Positions 4,101 to 35,190 of a stretch of 64,000 bases of DNA are shown here, in pieces; positions within the stretch are counted from its first letter, which is position 1, and the number at the start of each line of letters is the position of its first letter. Source of the DNA: Felis catus (lineage: Eukaryota); assembly GCF_018350175.1 (NCBI RefSeq), contig NC_058368.1, positions 44,456,001 to 44,520,000 on the forward strand, in the 5' to 3' direction. The notes beneath the pieces are model-generated. The model was not told the DNA's origin, did not search any database, and worked only from the letters and a program-made list of their open reading frames with translations. The position numbers and the translations under genes were made by a program.

Positions 4101-4282
4101 TAAATAAAACTGCTTTCTTAATTTCCCTTTGGGATTATTCATTGCTAATGTGTATAAAACAACAGATATTTGTGTTGATTTTGTATCCTGCAATATTGCT
4201 GAATTTATTTGTTCTAATAATTTTTGGTGGAATTGGTAAAGTTTTATACATACATCATGCCATCTATAAAGAGATAATTCTA

Positions 4283-4508
4283 GGGGCGCCTGGGTGGCGC
4301 AGTCGGTTAAGCGTCCGACTTCAGCCAGGTCACGATCTCGCGGTCCGTGAGTTCGAGCCCCGCATCAGGCTCTGGGCTGATGGCTCAGAGCCTGGAGCCT
4401 GTTTCCGATTCTGTGTCTCCCTCTCTCTCTGCCCCTCCCCTGTTCATGCTCTGTCTCTCTCTGTCCCAAAAATAAATAAAAACGTTGAAAAAAAATTTTT
4501 AAAAAAAA
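4283..4508 (+). mobile_element. CAN-SINE, young subfamily
   Basis: GGGGCGCCTGGGTGGCGCAG head. Perfect TSD aaagagataattcta at 4268-4282 and 4509-4523. Confidence 0.97.
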
Positions 4509-5382
4509 AAAGAGATAATTCTACTTTTTCATTTCCTATGTGGATGCTATTTATTTCTCTTTCTTGCCTGAATGATCTAGCTAAGACTTCCATCACTGTG
4601 CTGAATGGAAGTAAGAGAGAAAGCATCCTTGCTTTACTGTTGATCACAGTGGAAAAGCTTTTAATTTTTCACCATTGAAAATGATGTGGGCTGTGGCCTT
4701 TTCATATAAGGCCTTTATTATGTTTAGGTAATTTTAACTATTACTAGTGTGTTCAGTGTTTTGTTATTTTTTCCTTCATGAAAAAGTCAAATCCTTTTGT
4801 GAATCAAATGAAATGATCATGTGGTCTCTGTCCTTCATTCTGTTAATGTGGCCTAGTGTGGTTAATGTGACATTTGCTAATGACATTGTTGCTCCTTTCA
4901 GAGAACCAACTATTAGTTCCATTGATTTTTTTGGTTTCTCTATTTCACTTTTTTTTTTCCTGCTGTAGTCTTTATTACTTCCTTCTTTAGCTAAGTTTGA
5001 TTTTAGTTTGTTCCTCTTTTTCTGAGTCCTTAAGGTGTAAAGCTAAGGTGTTGATTTGGGATTTTTCTTCTTTCTTTAATGTAGAAATTTTCATTATAAA
5101 TTTGAGTGTTAGTACTACTTTTGCTGCATCCCATAAGTTTTGATATTTTGTGTTCCATTTTTATCTGCCTCAGTGGGAGTGGAAGTCAGACATCAGCTAT
5201 GAGTATTCTTTCAATTATTTTAGCAATTATTGGTCAATAGACATTTACCATGTCTTGGGTTCCAACACTGCATATCATTTTTCTACAAATTAACCCATTT
5301 CATCCAGGTTTTCAGATGCATTAATATACTCACATTATATTTTACATAATTATCTTGTTATATTTTAACCATGTTATATGTT

Positions 5383-27329: not shown

Positions 27330-28500
27330 TTATTTTCCTAGGGAATCCGTTGAACATATAAATCAATTTGAGAAAACTTAACATCTTTCCAATATTGAAT
27401 CTTCCAATCATAAACGTGGTTTATTCTTCCTTTTACTTATATCTCTATAATTTCTCTCAATAATTTTTATACTTTTCTATTTAGAGGTCTTGCATAGATT
27501 TATTTCTAGGAGTTTTATTTTTCTTGCCAATGCAAATGATATATAATTACAAAATTCATTTTCCAAATTGTTTCTTGGCTAAATATATGTAAATAACACA
27601 AATTTTTAGATTGACCTTATATCCAGTTGGTTTGCTAAGTCATATTTAATTTTAATAGTTTAGCTATTTTATTATAAATGTTTGCAATATTATTTGCAAA
27701 GAGTGAGAGCCTTTTTTTTTTCTCCAGTCCTACATACTTTATTTCTTATCTTGCAGCAATAAGGAACTCTAGAACAATGAAAAACCCAAGTGGTGACAAT
27801 GGGCATCCTAATATATTTGTGATCTACTAGTATTTCATCATCAGGTATGCCTCTGCAGGTTTTTGTGTGTTTGCCTTGTTTTGTTTTGTTTTAGATTCAT
27901 AATTGAATTAAGTAAGGTTTTTTATACTCCTGCTACGTTAAGTTGATAGTGATAATTGTTGGCTTGATTTTGGTTTTTAATCATGAAACTGTATTGGTTT
28001 TTGCTTTATCAAATCCTTTTTTTCTGAATCTCCTGACATTACTTTCCTCATCTTGGTACAAGCTGAAAGTTTTTTTCCCTTGTTCTGTTAATGTAGTGAA
28101 TTACATTAATTAACTCCCAGTATTAACTCAATCTCACCTTCATGAATTAAACCCATTTTGGTGATAACATATACTTTATCTTATGTATCATTGCACTTAG
28201 TGTGCTTATCTTTTGTTTAGGATTTTTCAACTGTGTTCATGAGATACTTTAGGCCATAGTTTTTCTTTCTTGTAATACTCTTGTGAGATTTTTATGTAAG
28301 GTAATGTGGTCTCAAAACAAAAAGTTGTGCATTTTTTCCTGTCATTTGAAAATTCATGGATATATTAATAGTATTTATTTCTTAAACATTTGGAAGAATT
28401 CACTAATGAAACCATCTGGGTCTGTAGTTAATTTGAAAAATTTTTAAATTATGAATTCAATTTATTCAATAGATAAGGGCTGCAGAGATTTTTTTTTCTT
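27330..28500 (-). mobile_element. Old mammalian L1 ORF2 fragment
   Basis: acatctttccaatattgaatcttccaatc, agtggtgacaatgggcatcct and ttggaagaattcactaatgaaaccatctgggtctg. Confidence 0.8.
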
Positions 28501-29544
28501 CCTTCCTAGTTTGCCCTTAAACTTCAAAACTTATTCATTCCAATATAGAATGTCCAGAGTTCTTTGTCTTTTGGAACTCTTTCTGAATCTTTAGCTACCA
28601 TGGTAGCAAAAGCAAAAGAGCAGAAACACTAATATAAAAAACAAGCTGGTGCATAATCACATAAACTACTTTCACAATTCAATTATAGTTAGAGATGATC
28701 AAATGGATATTTCATTCTCATCAAGTTAAAAACAAAGAAACTGAAAACTTTCACATGGATTTTCTTAATTTTATATTACATTCCATAACATTATGTTTTA
28801 CTATTTTTGTTAAATACAGAGTTACGAATGTGTTAGAAAAAATGTCTTTTTTTCAAACTTGTTAAACAGATAAAAGGTAAGAAGCTACTTAGGTAGCTTA
28901 GGTAAGAAATCTGGTACAGTTAATAAATTGACAGATCTTAATCAGATGTGAGTGGTTTAGGTTTACACGTTTGTATTCAATTTTCAAGTTTATACCTTAA
29001 ACCAAGTATACATTTATATGTATAAATAGTTAAAATATGACATACATAAATACACATATTTTAATATCTCATTAAAAGTTTACATTTTAAAAAATATACT
29101 CTTTTGCTTTATATTCTAGCAGTGAACATATTTTGGGTCACATAAAACTTATCTTAGATAAGATTACTAGAATTAAAATGTTGCTAGTGTTATTTCTTTG
29201 GTATGACATACAAATTTATATTTAATACTAAGTATTCAGCAGTGATCTTAAAATCATTTAAAATACTTTCACCTTTGATTGTATAGTGTTTCCTAACATT
29301 TGTCAATTCTAGGATAAAAAAAGTTACCTTCTTAATAACAAAACTCGGTGTTTGAAACTAATTCTAATACTTTACATCAAAGCAAGGACTAAATACATGT
29401 TCAATTATTAATACAGAAAAACATTAAATAAAACCTTACATTTTAATTTACATTTTTTCCTAAAATGCCTATAAAAAACCAAAAAACAAAAAACAGCCAA
29501 ACACTAAATATAGCACCCATTATATTATTAATGTTAACACTATA

Positions 29545-29583
29545 TGACATCACTATGGATGACATAAAATGTTGCCTAGTTGC
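29545..29583 (+). promoter_or_regulatory. Putative promoter of the coiled-coil gene: CRE-like sites, TATA variant, partial X-box
   Basis: TGACATCA at 29545-29552, TGACATAA at 29560-29567, CATAAAA at 29563-29569 and GTTGCCTAGTTGC at 29571-29583, about 55-90 bp upstream of a consensus splice donor. Confidence 0.45.
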
Positions 29584-29636
29584 TTTCTAGTACTAAAACA
29601 AATCAGGCTTGCTGGAAATTCAGAGACCAAAGAAAT

Positions 29637-30018
29637 GTAAGTGTGAATGTCTGTTTAAATATTTGATAACACTACTAAATATCTAAGTAAATATGGTAAA
29701 ATTATAGTGTATAACAATATATTTGAAAATGTTTTCTAGTTCTTACAAAGCCAAAAATGTTTTTATAAACACATGGTATTTTTCTACAATATCAATAATG
29801 AATAGATTAGTGTAAGATTAATAGTTTAGTGAAAGCAGTTTAACTCAGAGCTTAATTTAACACAAAACAATTCAATGATTTAACCTTGATCAATATTCAA
29901 TATGTAACCTAGAATTATTAATTGGTAATTTAAATGTGTTGAGATTTAAACTTTGTTACATCAACCTAATAGTTAAGTTACTGAATTGTCTTCATATTTG
30001 CCTGTTCTTCTCCTGCAG
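29637..30018 (+). other. Putative 5'-UTR intron of the coiled-coil gene
   Basis: Donor AAT|GTAAGT at 29637. Acceptor cctgttcttctcctgCAG| at 30018 with a strong pyrimidine tract. A weaker alternative acceptor tttttgctCAG| ends at 30192. Confidence 0.55.
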
Positions 30019-30210
30019 TCGGCCTGACTGAGCCTTGTTTAGATCCCTGCTATATTACTTGTATAAGTCAACACAACAGCCAATTCCATATGAACAAATT
30101 CTCAACACATTTAGAACAGCTTTTGTTGTAAATATCACTAGTCCACCTTTGGCTGAACCCAGAACACTTGGAGTGTATATATTTTTGCTCAGATAAAACA
30201 CTAAGAAACA

Positions 30211-30969
30211 ATGGTTGTCTCTCAATCAAAGTGGATAAATAGAGGTAAGATATTGCGATTGTTTTCCTCTTTTTTCTCTTGCACTCAAGATCAAAATAAA
30301 CTCAAACATGAGCCTCATGAGGTGGGAAAAAATCTTCAGAGAGACAATAAGGCATCCAGGGATGAGAACAAGGCTCTTAGAAAAGAAAATAAGTCCCTTT
30401 GGAGAGAAAATAAAGCTCTTCATCAAGAAAACAAAGCCTTCCGAATGGACAACCATTTGATCTGGGAGGTGAATCAATCCCTGAGAGAGCAAAACCAGGC
30501 CCTATGGAAGTTTAAAAATGTGATTTTGGAGAGCCAAAGACCACCAGAGGAAAAAATCAATGCTTTGAACACAGAAAGAAAGTCTCATTGGCAACAGAAT
30601 CGAGCCCTGGAGGCTCAGATCAAGGCTCTCAGAGAACAGGAGAAAGCCTTCCAGAATGAGGCGAAAGCTCTTCAGGAAGAAATACAGTCTCTCCATGAGG
30701 AGATCAAGGCCCTGAAACACCAGGAGAGAGCACTCAAGATGGAGGAACAAGACTTGATGAAAGAAGGAATAGCACTAGAGATGGAAGAACGGGCTCTGTG
30801 GAAGGAGGAGCAGGCCCTTCGTGAGGAGAACAAGGCTCTTAGAGAAGAAAACAGTGCACTTCAAGAGGAGGAAAAAGCCCTTCGGGAAGAGGCAAAGGTC
30901 CTTGAGGAGTGGAATAAGATTCTTCTGGGAGAAGATAAGAAACACACTTACGGGGAAAATGCACAATAA
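30211..30969 (+). CDS. CCDC70-like / Chibby-type heptad-repeat coiled-coil protein, 252 aa, single coding exon
   Basis: Longest ORF in the window and not repeat-derived. Strong Kozak context (acaATGG). Residues 42-251 form 30 uninterrupted heptads (LxxENKA/LWxEExA). Splice acceptor upstream, AATAAA cluster downstream. The resemblance to CCDC70 is recalled from memory. Confidence 0.85.
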   Translation: MVVSQSKWINRGKILRLFSSFFSCTQDQNKLKHEPHEVGKNLQRDNKASRDENKALRKENKSLWRENKALHQENKAFRMDNHLIWEVNQSLREQNQALWKFKNVILESQRPPEEKINALNTERKSHWQQNRALEAQIKALREQEKAFQNEAKALQEEIQSLHEEIKALKHQERALKMEEQDLMKEGIALEMEERALWKEEQALREENKALREENSALQEEEKALREEAKVLEEWNKILLGEDKKHTYGENAQ

Positions 30970-31157
30970 AACAAAGCAGGAGAATTGTGACTTGAAGATG
31001 TAACCAACAAACCATGAAGACCATTGACATTCCAGTAAAAATAAAACTTTTGAAGGTGAAATACTATTGTTAGGATTGAAGTCAAATCTGGAAATTTACA
31101 GTACTTGGTATCCGGTCCTGGAAACTAAATAAAATTCTGAGAATTTAAAAAAATAAA
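30965..31157 (+). terminator. Cluster of candidate polyadenylation signals
   Basis: AATAAA at 30965 (overlapping the TAA stop), 31040, 31128 and 31152, with T/GT-rich sequence downstream. Confidence 0.5.
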
Positions 31158-32207
31158 GGAAATGATTCTTTTAGGTTTACTTAAATTTTACATTACTATT
31201 AGAGGTATATATTTTTCTACAGTGCAAAGATGTATTGTTCAAAACGTGACACTGAATGGGCAAAGGGTTTTCCCTTTAAGTTCAAAAACACTGGATGAAT
31301 ATTATAAGAAATTAACAGAATGGGAAATATTTGTCTCAAAACTCATTCTTAGAATTATAAATATATGAAATATAAAGTTTTGCATACTTCATTCATATGT
31401 ATTGTAGAAGAATATCCTGCCTCTTTATGCTTATTTCAGTAATCTAGTTGGGGAGCTAATCAAATAACAAGAATTTTAAAAATAGGTGATAGTACAACAA
31501 TTGAGTGTTCACTGCCCTCCCCACTTTCTCTTTATTTCTCCTTTCAGCTATTGTCTTTCTCCTTTTGCTTTCGGGGAGGGAGGCTGTTCTCCATCTAATC
31601 AATGTATTAAAGAAAGAAAAGAAGGAGAGAATAGAGTCCAAACTTACAACAAGCATTTTGGAATTTGGAATGTAAGCGTGTAGAGTTCATAATACAAGTT
31701 GGGGGAGAAAGAAATGGAGTTTTCAGAAGTGTTAATGTTGATAATTGATCTAACTGAATGCTCTTCAAAACAAATAAACAACTGAGTCACATGAACTCAT
31801 GGATTAAAGTTACATATGTAATGGCAGAACATTAGATTACAAACCATGTAGAGGGTTGGTGCCATACCTTGCTTTTCATCATTGCAAATTTTGAGCACTT
31901 AATAATCAGGGTAAATGTTTAATGGGTTTTATTGAATATAACTGAAGTTATATCTCATTCTGATTCTTTTCTGGTATTGGGGAATGGAAGAGTAAGAAAA
32001 CTATAGGAAGATAATACTTTATTTGCTGCCGCATCTGCAAAAGCCCAACATACATTTGTCGAATATCTATAATTAGCACTCTATTAAGCAATACACTTAC
32101 ATTTAAGTATAAAAAGTGAAAAAAGACATGTCTCCTGACTTTAACAATTCCACTGAGTATAAAAGAAGAAAAACATTATTACACTATTCCTTAAGAAAGT
32201 CTATCTG

Positions 32208-32324
32208 GCCTCGGGTTCTGTGCTGACAGCACAGAGACTGTTTGGGATTCTCTCTCCTCTCTCTGCCCCTCCCCTGCTCGCACTTACTCACTCTCTGTCT
32301 CTCAAAATAATAAACATTTTTTTT
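32208..32324 (+). mobile_element. 5'-truncated CAN-SINE
   Basis: Perfect TSD aaagtctatctg at 32196-32207 and 32325-32336. The head is absent. Confidence 0.93.
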
Positions 32325-34194
32325 AAAGTCTATCTGCCTGGAAACAGTTTTCAGACCACTGTTTCTAGGAACTTATAGCCACTATTTCAATAAAATAATC
32401 AGCCTTGGAGAAGATTAAAAAGCAAAGAATGTAGATGTATGCTTGACTGATCTGCAGTCCAATCGGGACAGGGAAGAAACACAAATTCATCATTGTTTCT
32501 ACCTCAAAAGATGTGGAAGAAGCCTGCAGGCAGGAGAATGGCCAAATTAATGTTCTATGAATATGTGACTCTAATGCCTACATATTAATTTTGATATTTT
32601 TTTGTTCAGAAAAGAGTCCTTGCTCTGCAAATTCCCTGCTGTAGAATTTAGGACAAATAAACTATTTTATACTTTGGTGATGAGGTCAGGAGAGCAGTGT
32701 CTATGGAGTGGGTGTAGTTATCAATAACTTCCCTTAGTGAGAACGTTGCCATTATTATATCATATTTAAAGTAGTAGCAACTCAGGTTAAACTGTAAGGC
32801 TTAGTACATTTGGATCAGAATTTCAATCTCTCCTCTTAAATTTAAATGCTAACCTGAAAACTGGCACTATTACAAAGAAATCTTGGTTAATGTTTGTAGC
32901 CCACTCTATAAGACAAAAATTACGTAAGTAGAGAATGGATTAAAACAATTTATATCGATATCAACATTGCAGACAAATCAAAAGTTTCTACTAAAATGTC
33001 CAGTTACCATATTTATGAAATACTATATTGGAAAATGTATTTTCCCATATAAGTGGGATACATTTATATGTATATTAAAAATTTTTCATATTTATTGTTA
33101 GATATAAATTTCATGGAAATTGTGTGTTGAAAGGAGAAAATATTTGTGGATGAAAAATGGGGGCATTTGATGCTCACAATGCAGGAACTTTAGTGTATAT
33201 GAACTTTGTTTCTTTGTTGTTCATTTCTAGATTCTTCCTCATAGTTTCCAAAAAGTATGGTCACCTGAATACCTAATGTTCCCAATGGGATTGTCCCTCC
33301 TCCAGATCAGCAGTCATTAACTGCAGGACAGAACAGTGGCATTGATGCTCCAAATATCTTCTTAGAGATGATGGATTCCTTAGCTTTCCCACGGCACCTT
33401 CAGTCTAAACCCATATATATACTAATCTCCATATATTTAAGGCCACAAGTTTCCAGACTCTGAGGTCCATCCATCTTCACTTTGATTTATAATTCATGAT
33501 GCCCTATATGACTTGTAATATATCCCAATTCAACATTATTCCTCTCCTTCCTACACATATCTTTCACTTTTTCTGAATGTTCCTTTGGTCCTCTTAACCT
33601 AGACAGACTTCAGTGTTACTGTTCTCTTAGTATGCCTTGAAGGTGAAGGCATTTAGGCACCAGCAAAGATGGAACTAGTGTAGGCTTCCTCATTTCCCCA
33701 TTTGTAAAAATTTTATCCTGTTTCCTCCTACAAAAGACTTTGTTTCAATGAAGCACATATGAGATACCACTTTGATCTTACGTGATATTTTATATTCAGA
33801 CTTCCTGTTTGCTAATTCAGACATTAAAACCTTTAGAATCTGGCTCACAATATTTCTCTTCACCCTCCTGCTTTTACCTCTTCTGTATGACTTCAAACTG
33901 CACACAGAGGATCAGTCCAGAAATGTTCTACTCAGCATCTTGGATCTTGTTTCCAAAAACCATTGCCTCCATATCACCTCAGTCTCCATCCCCAATGTTA
34001 TATCTCAACACCTTTATGATTAGCAAGTACCCTGACTCTGACCTAATTCTCTGCCTAGTGTAGAGTAATAATTGCCTGTAGGGAATACTAATCTCCAGTT
34101 CACTGTAATTCCTATCCCTAGTTCACATAAATAATTTTATCAGTCCCTGGAGGTCTTTTCATTGGCAGAAGATCTACAAGAATAAGCCAAATCT

Positions 34195-34224: not shown

Positions 34225-34301
<77 letters not shown>

Positions 34302-34615
34302 GCCCTTCCCCTCCCCCCTCTCTCTCTTTCTCTCTCAAAATAAATAAAAATTAATTTTTTTTATTTTTATTTTTTAATTTTTTTTTAACGTTTATTTATT
34401 TTTGAGACAGAGAGAAACAGAGCATGAACGGGGGAGGGGCAGAGAGAGAGGGAGACACAGAATCGGAAGCAGGCTCCAGGCTCTGAGCCATCAGCCCAGA
34501 GCCCGACGCGGGGCTCGAACTCACAGATCGCGAGATCGTGACCTGAGCTGAAGTCGGACGCTTAACTGACTGCGCCACCCAGGCACCCCCAAAATTAAAA
34601 ATTTTTAATGAAAAA
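34195..34615 (+). mobile_element. 5'-truncated CAN-SINE (outer element) with long (CT)n
   Basis: TSD aagaataagccaaatct (34178) / aagaataagcaaaagct (34616). Confidence 0.88.
34355..34590 (-). mobile_element. Young CAN-SINE nested in the tail of the outer SINE
   Basis: Full length and CpG-rich, flanked by aaaattaa at 34347 and 34591. Confidence 0.96.
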
Positions 34616-35078: not shown

Positions 35079-35123
<45 letters not shown>

Positions 35124-35190
35124 GCCCTTCCCCTGCTCACTCTCCCTATCTCTCTCTCAAAATAAATAAGCTTTAAAAATAAATTAATAA
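34956..35190 (+). mobile_element. CAN-SINE (older)
   Basis: Head, gagcctgcttgggattctc, (CT)n tract and A tail. Confidence 0.92.

What the first reader, a model, noticed from the sequence alone, without database searches (positions are those of the whole stretch)
30211..30969. Isolated CCDC70-like gene built from 30 unbroken heptads, likely a poorly characterised paralog
Seen: the only non-repeat long ORF in 64 kb. After a 41-aa leader, residues 42-251 fall into 30 consecutive 7-aa units (LQRDNKA SRDENKA LRKENKS LWRENKA ... LREENKA LREENSA LQEEEKA) with no stutter, stop or frameshift, despite strong divergence between units. That pattern suggests purifying selection. Recalled: CCDC70 has the same (L/F)W-EE-KA heptads and a similar leader (SRW...QKKLMH versus SKW...QNKLKH here). 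Chibby-family proteins (CBY1, CBY2/SPERT) use LxEEN zippers. Inference: the sequence differs too much from recalled CCDC70 to be its ortholog, so this is probably a separate germ-cell-expressed family member.
Basis: partly seen in the sequence, partly recalled or inferred. Interest (0 to 1): 0.8.

Follow-up and report, generated by a model that had tools for sequence, protein, structure and literature searches.

The report
Expressed CCDC70-like coiled-coil gene, Chibby relative
This is a real, spliced and abundantly transcribed gene for a 252-residue leucine-zipper protein, a separate and uncharacterised relative of CCDC70 and the Chibby family that sits alone in a gene desert and appears broken in several other mammals.

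Summary
Leu falls in one heptad register in 22 of 30 units, which 0 of 10000 shuffles reach.

It is not CCDC70. In the same genome the true CCDC70 lies 24.8 Mb away, about 106 kb from ATP7B-type exons, and CBY2 lies 19.2 Mb away. The window sits between a protocadherin exon and a DACH-type exon, in a gene desert.

One RNA-type run holds a 1066-nt contig at depth about 1888, against 7-34 nearby. It joins a 56-nt upstream exon to the ORF exon across a GT..AG intron of 1142 nt. So the gene makes a spliced mRNA; the tissue is unknown.

The closest full-length relatives are bird proteins auto-named "CCDC70". These find this ORF, not true CCDC70, as their best match in this genome. Another relative carries a Chibby domain, and profile comparison links the group to CBY2 (96.8%).

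The 12 closest matches from other, unnamed sources are pieces of 45-166 aa, and most read as frame-shifted or truncated.

A protein atlas holds this sequence, and its nearest cluster is named "CCDC70-like". The gene therefore seems auto-annotated but unstudied. Function is inferred: a two-helix leucine-zipper scaffold.

The parts
28821..28876 (+). Exon 1, non-coding, about 56 nt. Its 5' end is approximate. It holds two tiny upstream ATGs at 28828 (2 codons) and 28842 (7 codons).
   Evidence: the X15 contig (depth 1887.6) carries 54 letters upstream of the joint, starting at 28821, with 8 loose letters before it. Sequence; upstream ATGs. This stretch (28450-28900) occurs only once in the genome.
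28877..30018 (+). Intron of 1142 nt with GT..AG ends. The donor reads AAAAG|GTAAGA and the acceptor TTCTTCTCCTGCAG|T.
   Evidence: joint 28874->30017 'skips 1142, GT..AG (cut +2)', 1 contig at depth 1887.6. Splice-site sequences.
30019..31020 (+). Exon 2 as far as the contig shows it. The true 3' end is unresolved and lies somewhere between 31020 and about 31090.
   Evidence: contig record 4 covers 30017-31020 with 0 differences at depth 1887.6. The bin 30917-31117 still averages 1596.8, while flanking bins are at 7-37.
30090..30131 (+). Upstream ORF of 13 codons in the 5' UTR.
30211..30969 (+). Coding sequence, 252 aa plus stop. The start context is GAAACAATGG, with A at -3 and G at +4.
30211..30324 (+). 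Leader, residues 1-38. It is predicted disordered and is basic, with no acidic residue before D27. It is a remnant of the C-terminal part of a Chibby domain (...SKWINRG...QNKLKH).
   Evidence: pLDDT below 50 for residues 1-34. (against P0002 residues 90-150: z 5.9, 0 of 2000). (tblastn alignments with P0002 and dog CBY2).
30325..30534 (+). Helix 1, residues 39-108. It has 8 LxxxNxA heptads, with Leu in unit column 1 and Asn in column 5, followed by weaker units.
30535..30552 (+). Helix break, residues 109-114 (RPPEEK).
   Evidence: Bird relatives have a similarly placed break, HRGSSE / KMGSFE.
30553..30924 (+). Helix 2, residues 115-238. From residue 133 on, Leu or a similar hydrophobic residue sits in register in 16 of 17 units. 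It ends ...EEWNKIL.
   Evidence: The EWNKIL motif is shared with bird P0030 (z 4.7, 2 of 2000).
30812..30891 (+). The only stretch where the heptads are still detectable as a DNA tandem repeat: 21-nt period, 3.8 copies, 66% matches.
31040..31045 (+). AATAAA, a candidate polyadenylation signal. Others lie at 30965, 31128 and 31152.
   Evidence: Which one is used was not shown.

Best explanation
The window holds a real two-exon gene. It has a short non-coding exon 1, a 1142-nt GT..AG intron, and an exon 2 that carries the whole 252-aa coding sequence.

The product belongs to the CCDC70/Chibby superfamily but is neither CCDC70 nor CBY2. It is the mammalian counterpart of the avian genes that pipelines label 'CCDC70', and it matches what a protein atlas calls 'CCDC70-like'.

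Compared with Chibby-domain relatives, it keeps only the last part of that domain as a disordered basic leader, with translation starting at about the position of an internal Met. It lacks the conserved C-terminal Chibby helix.

The rest is two long helices (39-108 and 115-238) separated by a Pro-Pro break. Leu recurs every seventh residue, Asn occupies the other core position through the first helix, and the flanking positions are Glu/Lys-rich.

Inferred mechanism: the protein acts as a leucine-zipper coiled-coil scaffold or adaptor. It would pair with itself or with the near-identical LxEENxA zippers of CBY2 or CCDC70, probably in male germ cells, where all its named relatives are expressed.

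Shown: locus, splicing, abundance in one run, relationships, helical prediction. Inferred: translation, pairing, tissue, and role. The gene appears to be kept in some lineages and decaying in others.
For: Gene and transcript:
- Run X15 has a contig at depth 1887.6 with 0 differences over 30017-31020, plus a GT..AG joint to 28821-28874. Neighbouring bins are at 7-34.
- No processed copy exists in the genome. The protein has only 2 matches, itself and CCDC70, and the exon-1 region has 1 match.
- The start codon has a strong context. 5.9% of point substitutions would give a stop, and the other frames are closed.

Not CCDC70 or CBY2:
- CCDC70 lies at C1:19.656 Mb beside HMA (ATP7B-type) exons at 19.537-19.550 Mb.
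- CBY2 lies at 25.28 Mb.
- The window lies between a protocadherin exon at 42.63 Mb and a Ski/Sno DHD exon at 46.65 Mb.

Relationships:
- The best full-length hit of the exhaustive search is bird P0018, at 5.8e-18 and 46% identity. Its source names it 'LOW QUALITY PROTEIN: CCDC70', Leptosomus.
- Searched back against this genome, P0018 hits the window ORF at 6.2e-18 and 74 bits. True CCDC70 scores 0.005 and 25 bits, and CBY2 scores 0.035.
- The BLASTP matrix gives window-bird 96.7 bits, window-P0002 79, window-CCDC70 59-69 and window-CBY2 38.9.
- P0002 passes Pfam Chibby at 26.0 bits against a cut-off of 24.8, and its best match in this genome is the window ORF.
- hhalign of the group against CBY2 gives 96.8%, E 2.5e-10.
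- Gaps inside the helices against P0018 and P0002 include exact 7-residue gaps.
- The atlas holds the sequence. Its top cluster is 'CCDC70-like', score 0.94, 64 members, Chordata. CCDC70 itself does not land there.

Fold: AlphaFold2 gives mean pLDDT 82.6 and two helices.

Family biology, from passages read:
- Cby1 homodimerises through its coiled coil, and Cby3 self-interacts and is testis-exclusive (PMC10783431).
- Cby2 is testis-predominant (PMC9226692).
- CCDC70 is described as highly expressed in mouse testis (PMC9913471).
Against: - Translation has not been shown.
- Three upstream ATGs precede the main start.
- Pfam finds no family above its cut-off in the protein itself. The best is bZIP_1 at 16.5 bits against 27.6, and Chibby is not listed at E up to 1.
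- The 5.8-billion-protein index holds no full-length close relative.
- The 12 closest matches in the exhaustive search are pieces of 45-166 aa at 48-81% identity, on contigs of 759-7244 nt. As I read their sequences, most switch into unrelated sequence or simply stop. At least three different sequences cover residues 79-119, so the gene seems broken in several other sources. I did not see their DNA, and their organisms are unnamed.
- A second run (X16, unspliced contig, depth 6.8) differs at 3 ORF positions, all amino-acid-changing (E114A, K115N, M177V), against 5 differences in 771 flanking bases. The numbers are too small to test selection, but they give no sign of constraint.
- An oligo-dT RNA run of the same organism, about 2% sampled, tissue unknown, gave no reads on the ORF.
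- The tissue of the expressing run is unknown, so 'germ cell' rests on relatives only.
Confidence: 0.6

Rival explanations
1. It is a decaying relic. The locus is transcribed, but the ORF is no longer under selection and stays open in this genome by luck, so in effect it is a long non-coding RNA.
For: The closest matches elsewhere are short, apparently frame-shifted or truncated pieces. All 3 ORF differences in run X16 change the amino acid. There are three upstream ATGs. The large protein index holds no close full-length relative.
Against: 5.9% of point substitutions would give a stop and any frameshift meets stops quickly, so 252 open codons are unlikely to survive long neutral drift; this is an inference from general mammalian rates, not a computed result. 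Bird relatives keep 46% identity, the same break and the same tail motif. Indels within the helices include exact 7-residue gaps. The mRNA is very abundant and spliced, with a strong start context. The atlas cluster has 64 members.
Confidence: 0.2
2. The protein is made, but it works as a stiff single alpha-helix or an intramolecular hairpin spacer rather than as a dimerising zipper.
For: Only one position per heptad is strongly hydrophobic (Leu). The other core position is mostly Asn in helix 1 and often Glu in helix 2, and the rest is Glu/Lys/Arg-rich. The model shows two long helices around a Pro-Pro break, a layout that would permit a hairpin.
Against: The strict 7-residue Leu periodicity (22 of 30; 0 of 10000 shuffles) is the signature of packing against another helix. 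Relatives Cby1 and Cby3 self-associate through their coiled coils (PMC10783431, passages).
Confidence: 0.15
3. It is CCDC70 itself: the ortholog, misjudged because the gene evolves fast.
For: The architecture is similar, with a short leader, heptads and a short tail, and BLASTP gives 34% identity over 158 aa.
Against: A separate CCDC70, near-identical to a CCDC70 sequence from another source (P0042, 429 bits), lies 24.8 Mb away beside ATP7B-type exons. Trp fills the second unit column in only 5 of 30 units here.
Confidence: 0.01
4. It is a retrocopy of CBY2 that has lost its N-terminus.
For: All 13 word-index hits are CBY2 proteins. Dog CBY2 residues 92-365 align along the whole ORF.
Against: The gene has its own spliced 5' exon and intron. 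It scores only 38.9 bits against the genome's own CBY2, compared with 96.7 against the bird gene. It lacks the long CBY2 middle region and the C-terminal helix.
Confidence: 0.02

Closest known systems
[quoted passage not shown]
   Same: Both are small proteins, 222 and 252 aa. Both have a short basic leader containing SKW, then a long run of (L/F)x(E/K)(E/D)xKA heptads and a short tail (ED[KR][KH]H...Q). Both have a putative acceptor site shortly upstream of the ATG. They lie on the same chromosome.
   Different: The locus differs: CCDC70 is next to ATP7B-type exons, whereas this gene is in a desert 24.8 Mb away. CCDC70 is Trp-rich (FW/LW) and has no Pro-Pro break. Identity is only 34% and is driven by the repeats. 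Leader similarity is not above chance, and there is no DNA similarity in the 5' region. Bird 'CCDC70' proteins prefer this ORF over true CCDC70.
Avian proteins auto-named 'LOW QUALITY PROTEIN: coiled-coil domain-containing protein 70' (P0018 Leptosomus discolor; P0030 Ammospiza maritima; P0096 Passerculus sandwichensis)
   Same: They are the best full-length matches in both directions. They show 43-46% identity over about 180 residues, a helix break at the same place, a shared EWNKIL tail motif, and a one-heptad indel.
   Different: The bird models are longer (343-393 aa). Their N-terminal parts look partly like mis-predicted or transposon-derived sequence; P0018 has a weak endonuclease/reverse-transcriptase match. 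Their synteny could not be checked.
CBY2 (SPERT/Nurit), Chibby family member 2
   Same: The LxEENxAL zipper heptads are the same. The group profile aligns with CBY2 from the last part of the Chibby domain through the first zipper (96.8%). CBY2 lies on the same chromosome at 25.28 Mb. Cby2 is testis-predominant in mouse, and its knockout is fertile (PMC9226692, passages).
   Different: CBY2 (413 aa of its frame read here) has a Pfam Chibby domain at 47.4 bits, a long non-helical middle region and the conserved C-terminal helix ...[20 protein letters not shown]. The window protein has none of these.
P0002 (UniParc UPI0007042E91, organism not given)
   Same: Its heptad region is 37-45% identical, and its best match in this genome is the window ORF. 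The window leader aligns with its ...GKWLNNGSSFHP...NKVQH segment (z 5.9).
   Different: P0002 still has enough upstream sequence to pass the Pfam Chibby cut-off (26.0 against 24.8 bits). In the window a stop codon lies two codons upstream of the ATG, and no upstream match to P0002 residues 1-121 exists within the 64 kb.
CBY1 and CBY3
   Same: They are small coiled-coil proteins that self-associate through a Leu heptad coiled coil. Cby3 is testis-exclusive and acts with ciBAR1 at the sperm annulus (PMC10783431, passages).
   Different: Both have a full Chibby domain and only a short coiled coil; the genome's CBY3-like frame matches all 114 profile positions. The cited paper counts only three family members and does not mention CCDC70 or this gene.

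Membership tests
CCDC70 (orthology) | Position next to ATP7B (the human arrangement is recalled, not looked up) | tested here: not met
   ATP7B-type HMA exons lie at C1:19.537-19.550 Mb and a CCDC70 ORF at 19.656 Mb. The window ORF is at 44.486 Mb.
CCDC70 (orthology) | Best mutual match with CCDC70 proteins | tested here: not met
   A CCDC70-type protein (P0042) appears only at E 6.3e-6 and matches the other locus at 429 bits. The window ORF's best full-length match is the bird group.
CCDC70 (orthology) | Trp-rich (F/L)W-EE-KA heptads | tested here: not met
   Trp is in the second column of only 5 of 30 units. Compare the own CCDC70 sequence.
'CCDC70-like' group (automatic cluster name; avian 'CCDC70') | Closest to that cluster or group in both directions | tested here: met
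   Atlas top cluster 0.94, 209 of 256 features, 64 members (a lead only). P0018 against the genome: window ORF 6.2e-18 versus CCDC70 0.005. Window against the library: P0018 is the best full-length hit.
'CCDC70-like' group (automatic cluster name; avian 'CCDC70') | Shared synteny with the bird genes | not testable with these tools
   No bird or other vertebrate genome was available. Only the contig sizes of the bird records are known.
Chibby family (Pfam PF14645) | Chibby domain above the Pfam cut-off | tested here: not met
   PF14645 is not listed for P0001 at E up to 1, and no PF14645 match lies near the window in the genome. Relatives pass: CBY2 47.4 bits, P0002 26.0 bits.
Chibby family (Pfam PF14645) | Detectable homology to family members outside the generic heptads | tested here: met
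   hhalign of the group profile against the CBY2 profile: 96.8%, E 2.5e-10, 92 columns spanning the end of the Chibby domain and the first zipper. Leader against P0002: z 5.9. Leader against own CBY2: z 2.4, marginal. The profile signal rests largely on P0002.
Chibby family (Pfam PF14645) | Conserved C-terminal helix (...[12 protein letters not shown]... in CBY2; ...MLTETTARMHLL... in the CBY3-like frame) | tested here: not met
   It is absent from the window protein, which ends ...EEWNKILLGEDKKHTYGENAQ.
Leucine-zipper coiled coil | Heptad periodicity of a hydrophobic core residue over long predicted helices | tested here: met
   Leu 22 of 30 in one register, 0 of 10000 shuffles. Helices 39-108 and 115-238 with pLDDT mostly above 90.
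Leucine-zipper coiled coil | Self- or hetero-association | not testable with these tools
   This needs a biophysical or pull-down experiment.

The most novel reading that the evidence does not exclude
This gene, not CCDC70, would be the conservative descendant of an old amniote fourth branch of the Chibby family. Birds still carry it with a Chibby-like N-terminus. Mammals shifted the start to an internal Met, leaving a domain-less zipper protein. CCDC70 would be its fast-evolving Trp-rich mammalian offshoot. Avian 'CCDC70' would then be misnamed, the Chibby family would have five rather than three mammalian members, and this member would be dying out lineage by lineage in mammals. As a zipper without the Chibby head, it could titrate or extend CBY2-type zippers in spermatids.
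Probability: 0.3. Interest if true: 0.5.

Novelty: new member of a known kind. Interest (0 to 1): 0.35.

Why it matters
CCDC70 and Cby2 are testis-enriched proteins with no known mechanism, and the literature read here counts only three Chibby members (PMC10783431). No paper in the library mentions CCDC70 together with Chibby, and none contains 'CCDC70-like'.

If this gene and CCDC70 are head-less Chibby relatives, they become candidate partners or back-ups. That could help explain why the Cby2 knockout is fertile (PMC9226692). The case also warns that avian 'CCDC70' labels probably point to the wrong mammalian gene.

Beyond that, it is an ordinary case: a small, fast-evolving coiled-coil gene kept in some lineages and apparently lost in others.

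Tried and rejected
1. Homodimer prediction for residues 42-251, two copies. The outcome was 'no answer', score 0.02 against a mark of 0.42, and the controls were not run. It counts neither for nor against pairing.

2. Fetching orthologous DNA from metagenome contigs. The single protein P0001 gave 47 pattern matches, none confirmed. Piece P0016 gave 384 pattern matches, none confirmed. As a result I never saw the DNA of the apparently broken copies.

3. Similarity of the leader to the CCDC70 leader was not above chance. DNA similarity of the acceptor/5' UTR and of the first 135 coding bases to the CCDC70 locus was also not above chance (522 of 1000 and 333 of 1000 shuffles score as high).

4. 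Earlier notes of this scan, searched by place, by sequence and by words, held nothing relevant.

5. I searched for remains of the upstream Chibby part near the ORF. tblastn of P0002 and dog CBY2 against the 64 kb found matches only inside the ORF. The genome-wide PF14645 search found 4 matches, none near the window.

6. A recent tandem-repeat origin is rejected: only 3.8 diverged 21-nt copies are detectable.

7. A repeat-derived promoter is not supported: the region 28450-28900 occurs once in the genome.

8. Run X20 (organism B) gave a single 177-nt identical contig inside exon 2, which is too little to show expression or conservation.
Full report
**Observation.** The ORF is exactly as described: window 30211-30969, + strand, 252 aa.
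- With ATG starts and a 120-aa threshold, the 64-kb window has only two ORFs. The other (4148-4678) reads through SINE-like sequence. The window is AT-rich, with GC between 0.27 and 0.39.
- Cut into sevens from residue 42, Leu fills the first column in 22 of 30 units and Ala the last in 19 of 30. No shuffle out of 10000 reaches 22 Leu in one register.
- The DNA no longer looks like a repeat. Only 3.8 copies of a 21-nt unit, at 66% matches, are detectable at 30812-30891.
- The frame is fragile rather than protected by composition. 5.9% of possible point substitutions create a stop, and the other two forward frames carry 11 and 18 stops.
- '30 unbroken heptads' is too strong. Units 9-13 are poor and contain RPPEEK. 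The AlphaFold2 model (mean pLDDT 82.6) gives two helices, 39-108 and 115-238, with a break at 109-114 and disordered ends.

**It is a transcribed, spliced gene.** I laid four public runs on window 27500-33500.
- Run X15 (same organism label; its RNA status is the tool's guess) has a 1066-nt contig at word depth 1887.6. It matches 30017-31020 without a difference and continues upstream across a joint that skips 1142 nt with GT..AG ends.
- This gives exon 1 at about 28821-28876, an intron at 28877-30018 and exon 2 from 30019. The splice sites read AAAAG|GTAAGA and TTCTTCTCCTGCAG|T. Neighbouring bins have depths of 7-34.
- The joined form cannot come from a processed copy in the DNA. The genome has only two matches to the protein, itself and CCDC70, and one match to the exon-1 region.
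- The 3' end is not resolved. The contig stops at 31020, yet the 30917-31117 bin still averages 1596.8. AATAAA occurs at 30965, 31040, 31128 and 31152.
- The main ATG has A at -3 and G at +4. Three upstream ATGs, with ORFs of 2, 7 and 13 codons, precede it.
- Run X16, a gut metatranscriptome, has an unspliced contig at depth 6.8. It carries three differences in the ORF, all amino-acid-changing (E114A, K115N, M177V), and no indel.
- Run X24 (oligo-dT RNA, raw reads, about 2% sampled, tissue unknown) has no read on the ORF. Run X20 has one identical 177-nt contig. The tissue of X15 is not known to me.

**It is not CCDC70 and not CBY2.** The window is C1:44456001-44520000 of a 2.43-Gb, 71-contig assembly.
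- The only other match to the protein is C1:19656235-19656696 on the minus strand. That frame holds a 222-aa protein, MFPFKVSKWMGLSCF..., with Trp-rich heptads. It lies about 106 kb from a row of HMA-domain exons at 19.537-19.550 Mb. This fits the CCDC70-ATP7B neighbourhood as I recall it from human.
- A near-identical protein from another source (P0042) confirms that this other locus is the conserved CCDC70.
- Chibby-domain matches lie at C1:25.28 Mb (a 465-aa frame, CBY2), at C1:90.56 Mb (a full-length single frame, CBY3-like) and on C16 (two exons).
- Other markers on C1 are Caudal 7.60 Mb, BRCA2 repeats 11.57 Mb, large protocadherin exons at 29.79, 33.97 and 42.63 Mb, and a Ski/Sno DHD exon at 46.65 Mb.
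- From the recalled human order, the last two are PCDH9 and DACH1. That places the window in the gene desert between PCDH9 and KLHL1. The gene names of these markers are my recollection; the coordinates are tool results.

**Relatives.**
- Pfam finds nothing above its cut-off in the protein.
- The word-index search gave 13 hits, all CBY2/Chibby proteins. The best was P0002, 303 aa, 39% identity.
- The exhaustive search gave 82 hits at E up to 0.001, 12 at up to 1e-10 and none at up to 1e-30.
- The best full-length hits are P0018 (5.8e-18, 46%), P0002 and P0030. P0018, P0030 and P0096 are bird records named 'LOW QUALITY PROTEIN: coiled-coil domain-containing protein 70'. P0002 is a UniParc record without an organism.
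- Searched back against this genome, P0018 hits the window ORF at 6.2e-18, true CCDC70 at 0.005 and CBY2 at 0.035. P0002 hits the window ORF at 4.5e-14, then CBY2 at 3e-10 through its Chibby part.
- In a BLASTP matrix the window protein scores 96.7 bits with P0018, 79 with P0002, 59-69 with the genome's own CCDC70 and 38.9 with its own CBY2.
- The similarity is not only generic heptads. The helix break sits at the same place, the tail motif EWNKIL is shared with P0030 (z 4.7; 2 of 2000 shuffles), and gaps inside the helices include exact seven-residue gaps.
- P0002 passes the Pfam Chibby cut-off (26.0 against 24.8 bits). The window leader aligns with that part of it (z 5.9; 0 of 2000). It aligns only marginally with the genome's own CBY2 (z 2.4; 64 of 2000) and not with the CCDC70 leader (z 0.37; 665 of 2000).
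- A profile of the window protein plus P0002 and the bird proteins aligns with a CBY2 profile at 96.8% probability (E 2.5e-10). The alignment covers 92 columns, from the end of the Chibby domain through the first zipper.
- In the tblastn alignment with dog CBY2, the window's start Met falls next to the Met of ...SDEMFVFQDGRW.... A stop lies two codons upstream of the window ATG, and no upstream Chibby remnant was found in the 64 kb.
- A protein atlas holds the window protein letter for letter. Its nearest cluster, at 0.94, is named 'coiled-coil domain-containing protein 70-like' and has 64 chordate members. The genome's CCDC70 does not land there. These atlas rows are leads, not tests.

**State in other sources.**
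- Twelve of the 82 hits are short proteins of 45-166 aa at 48-81% identity to parts of the ORF. None covers more than 93 of its 252 residues. They sit on contigs of 759-7244 nt.
- Reading their sequences against the window, I see four patterns. Some run from homologous into unrelated sequence (P0015, P0019, P0029, P0035, P0036, P0039, P0065, P0075). One ends in what I recall as a ruminant SINE frame and has lost two single residues, which would break the heptad register (P0017). Some simply stop where the window has Trp or Gln codons (P0024, P0016). One (P0032) simply stops.
- Three different sequences overlap residues 79-119, so at least three sources are involved.
- I did not see the DNA, and the organisms are unnamed. 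'Broken in several other mammals' is therefore my reading, not a demonstrated fact. The 64-member atlas cluster argues that intact copies exist elsewhere too.

**How it probably works.** The following is shown.
- The gene makes an abundant spliced mRNA.
- The frame is open and fragile.
- The protein is predicted to have a disordered basic leader and two long helices with Leu every seventh residue. Asn sits four residues after each Leu through the first eight units. The flanks are Glu/Lys-rich.

The following is inferred.
- The protein is made.
- It packs through the Leu seam as a leucine zipper, with itself or with the almost identical LxEENxAL zippers of CBY2 or CCDC70.
- It serves as a scaffold or adaptor in male germ cells.

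The inference leans on relatives. Cby1 homodimerises through its coiled coil, and Cby3 self-interacts, binds ciBAR1 and is testis-exclusive (PMC10783431, passages). Cby2 is testis-predominant and its knockout is fertile (PMC9226692, passages). CCDC70 is said to be highly expressed in mouse testis (PMC9913471, passages). Because the window protein lacks both the Chibby head and the conserved C-terminal Chibby helix, it should not be expected to do what Cby1 or Cby3 do through those parts.

**Comparison with what is known, and novelty.**
- The gene fails the tests for being CCDC70: locus, mutual best match and Trp-rich units. It also fails the Pfam test for a Chibby domain.
- It nevertheless shows profile-level homology to CBY2 and is the mutual best match of the avian 'CCDC70' group.
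- No paper in the searched library contains both CCDC70 and Chibby (0 papers), and none contains 'CCDC70-like' or 'CCDC70L' (0 occurrences among the 39 papers returned for the three terms). Only listings and the named passages were read.
- The sequence itself is already in a public protein collection under an automatic 'CCDC70-like' cluster name. This is therefore a new, unstudied member of a known kind, not a new kind.

**Verdict.** The claimed leader resemblance to CCDC70, the unbroken 30 heptads and the germ-cell expression are not shown. Interest is modest.

Noticed in passing
window 32211-32320: A 3' part of a carnivore-type SINE (family recalled, not tested) ends in an A-rich tail. It is flanked by a near-perfect direct repeat, AAAGTCTATCTG, at about 32197-32208 and 32326-32337, which looks like a target-site duplication. 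Reads and contigs pile up here at depths up to about 1e5, showing that it is a high-copy repeat.
   Followed up: partly
window 4148-4678: The only other ORF of 120 aa or more (176 aa). Its middle reads ...GAPGWRSRLSVRLQPGHDLAVREFEPRIRLWADGSEPGACF..., which I recall as a translated carnivore SINE. It is very likely not a gene.
   Followed up: no
window 29309-29509 (inside the intron): A short stretch has raised depth in three runs (116.6, 66 and up to 12.4) and joints leading to the SINE at about 32257-32276. It is probably another fragment of the same repeat family.
   Followed up: no
window 34229-34336 and 35081-35158: Two long (TC)n microsatellites, of 55 and 38 copies.
   Followed up: no
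L002 (G000:C1:19654735-19658196), minus strand: The genome's true CCDC70 sits in a 323-aa stop-to-stop frame, and the 222-aa protein starts at an internal Met. An acceptor-like TGTCCCTGCAG lies 78 nt upstream of that ATG, which parallels the two-exon layout of the window gene. No RNA evidence was looked at.
   Followed up: partly
G000:C1 marker order: ATP7B-type exons (19.54 Mb) lie between the BRCA2 repeats (11.57 Mb) and CBY2 (25.28 Mb). By my recollection of the human chromosome 13 order, the ATP7B/CCDC70 block is rearranged relative to human.
   Followed up: no
P0018 (bird record), residues 87-140: The N-terminal part of this 'CCDC70' model has a weak endonuclease/reverse-transcriptase match (PF14529, E 0.002, below the cut-off). 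The bird gene model probably fuses transposon sequence to the real coiled-coil exon.
   Followed up: no
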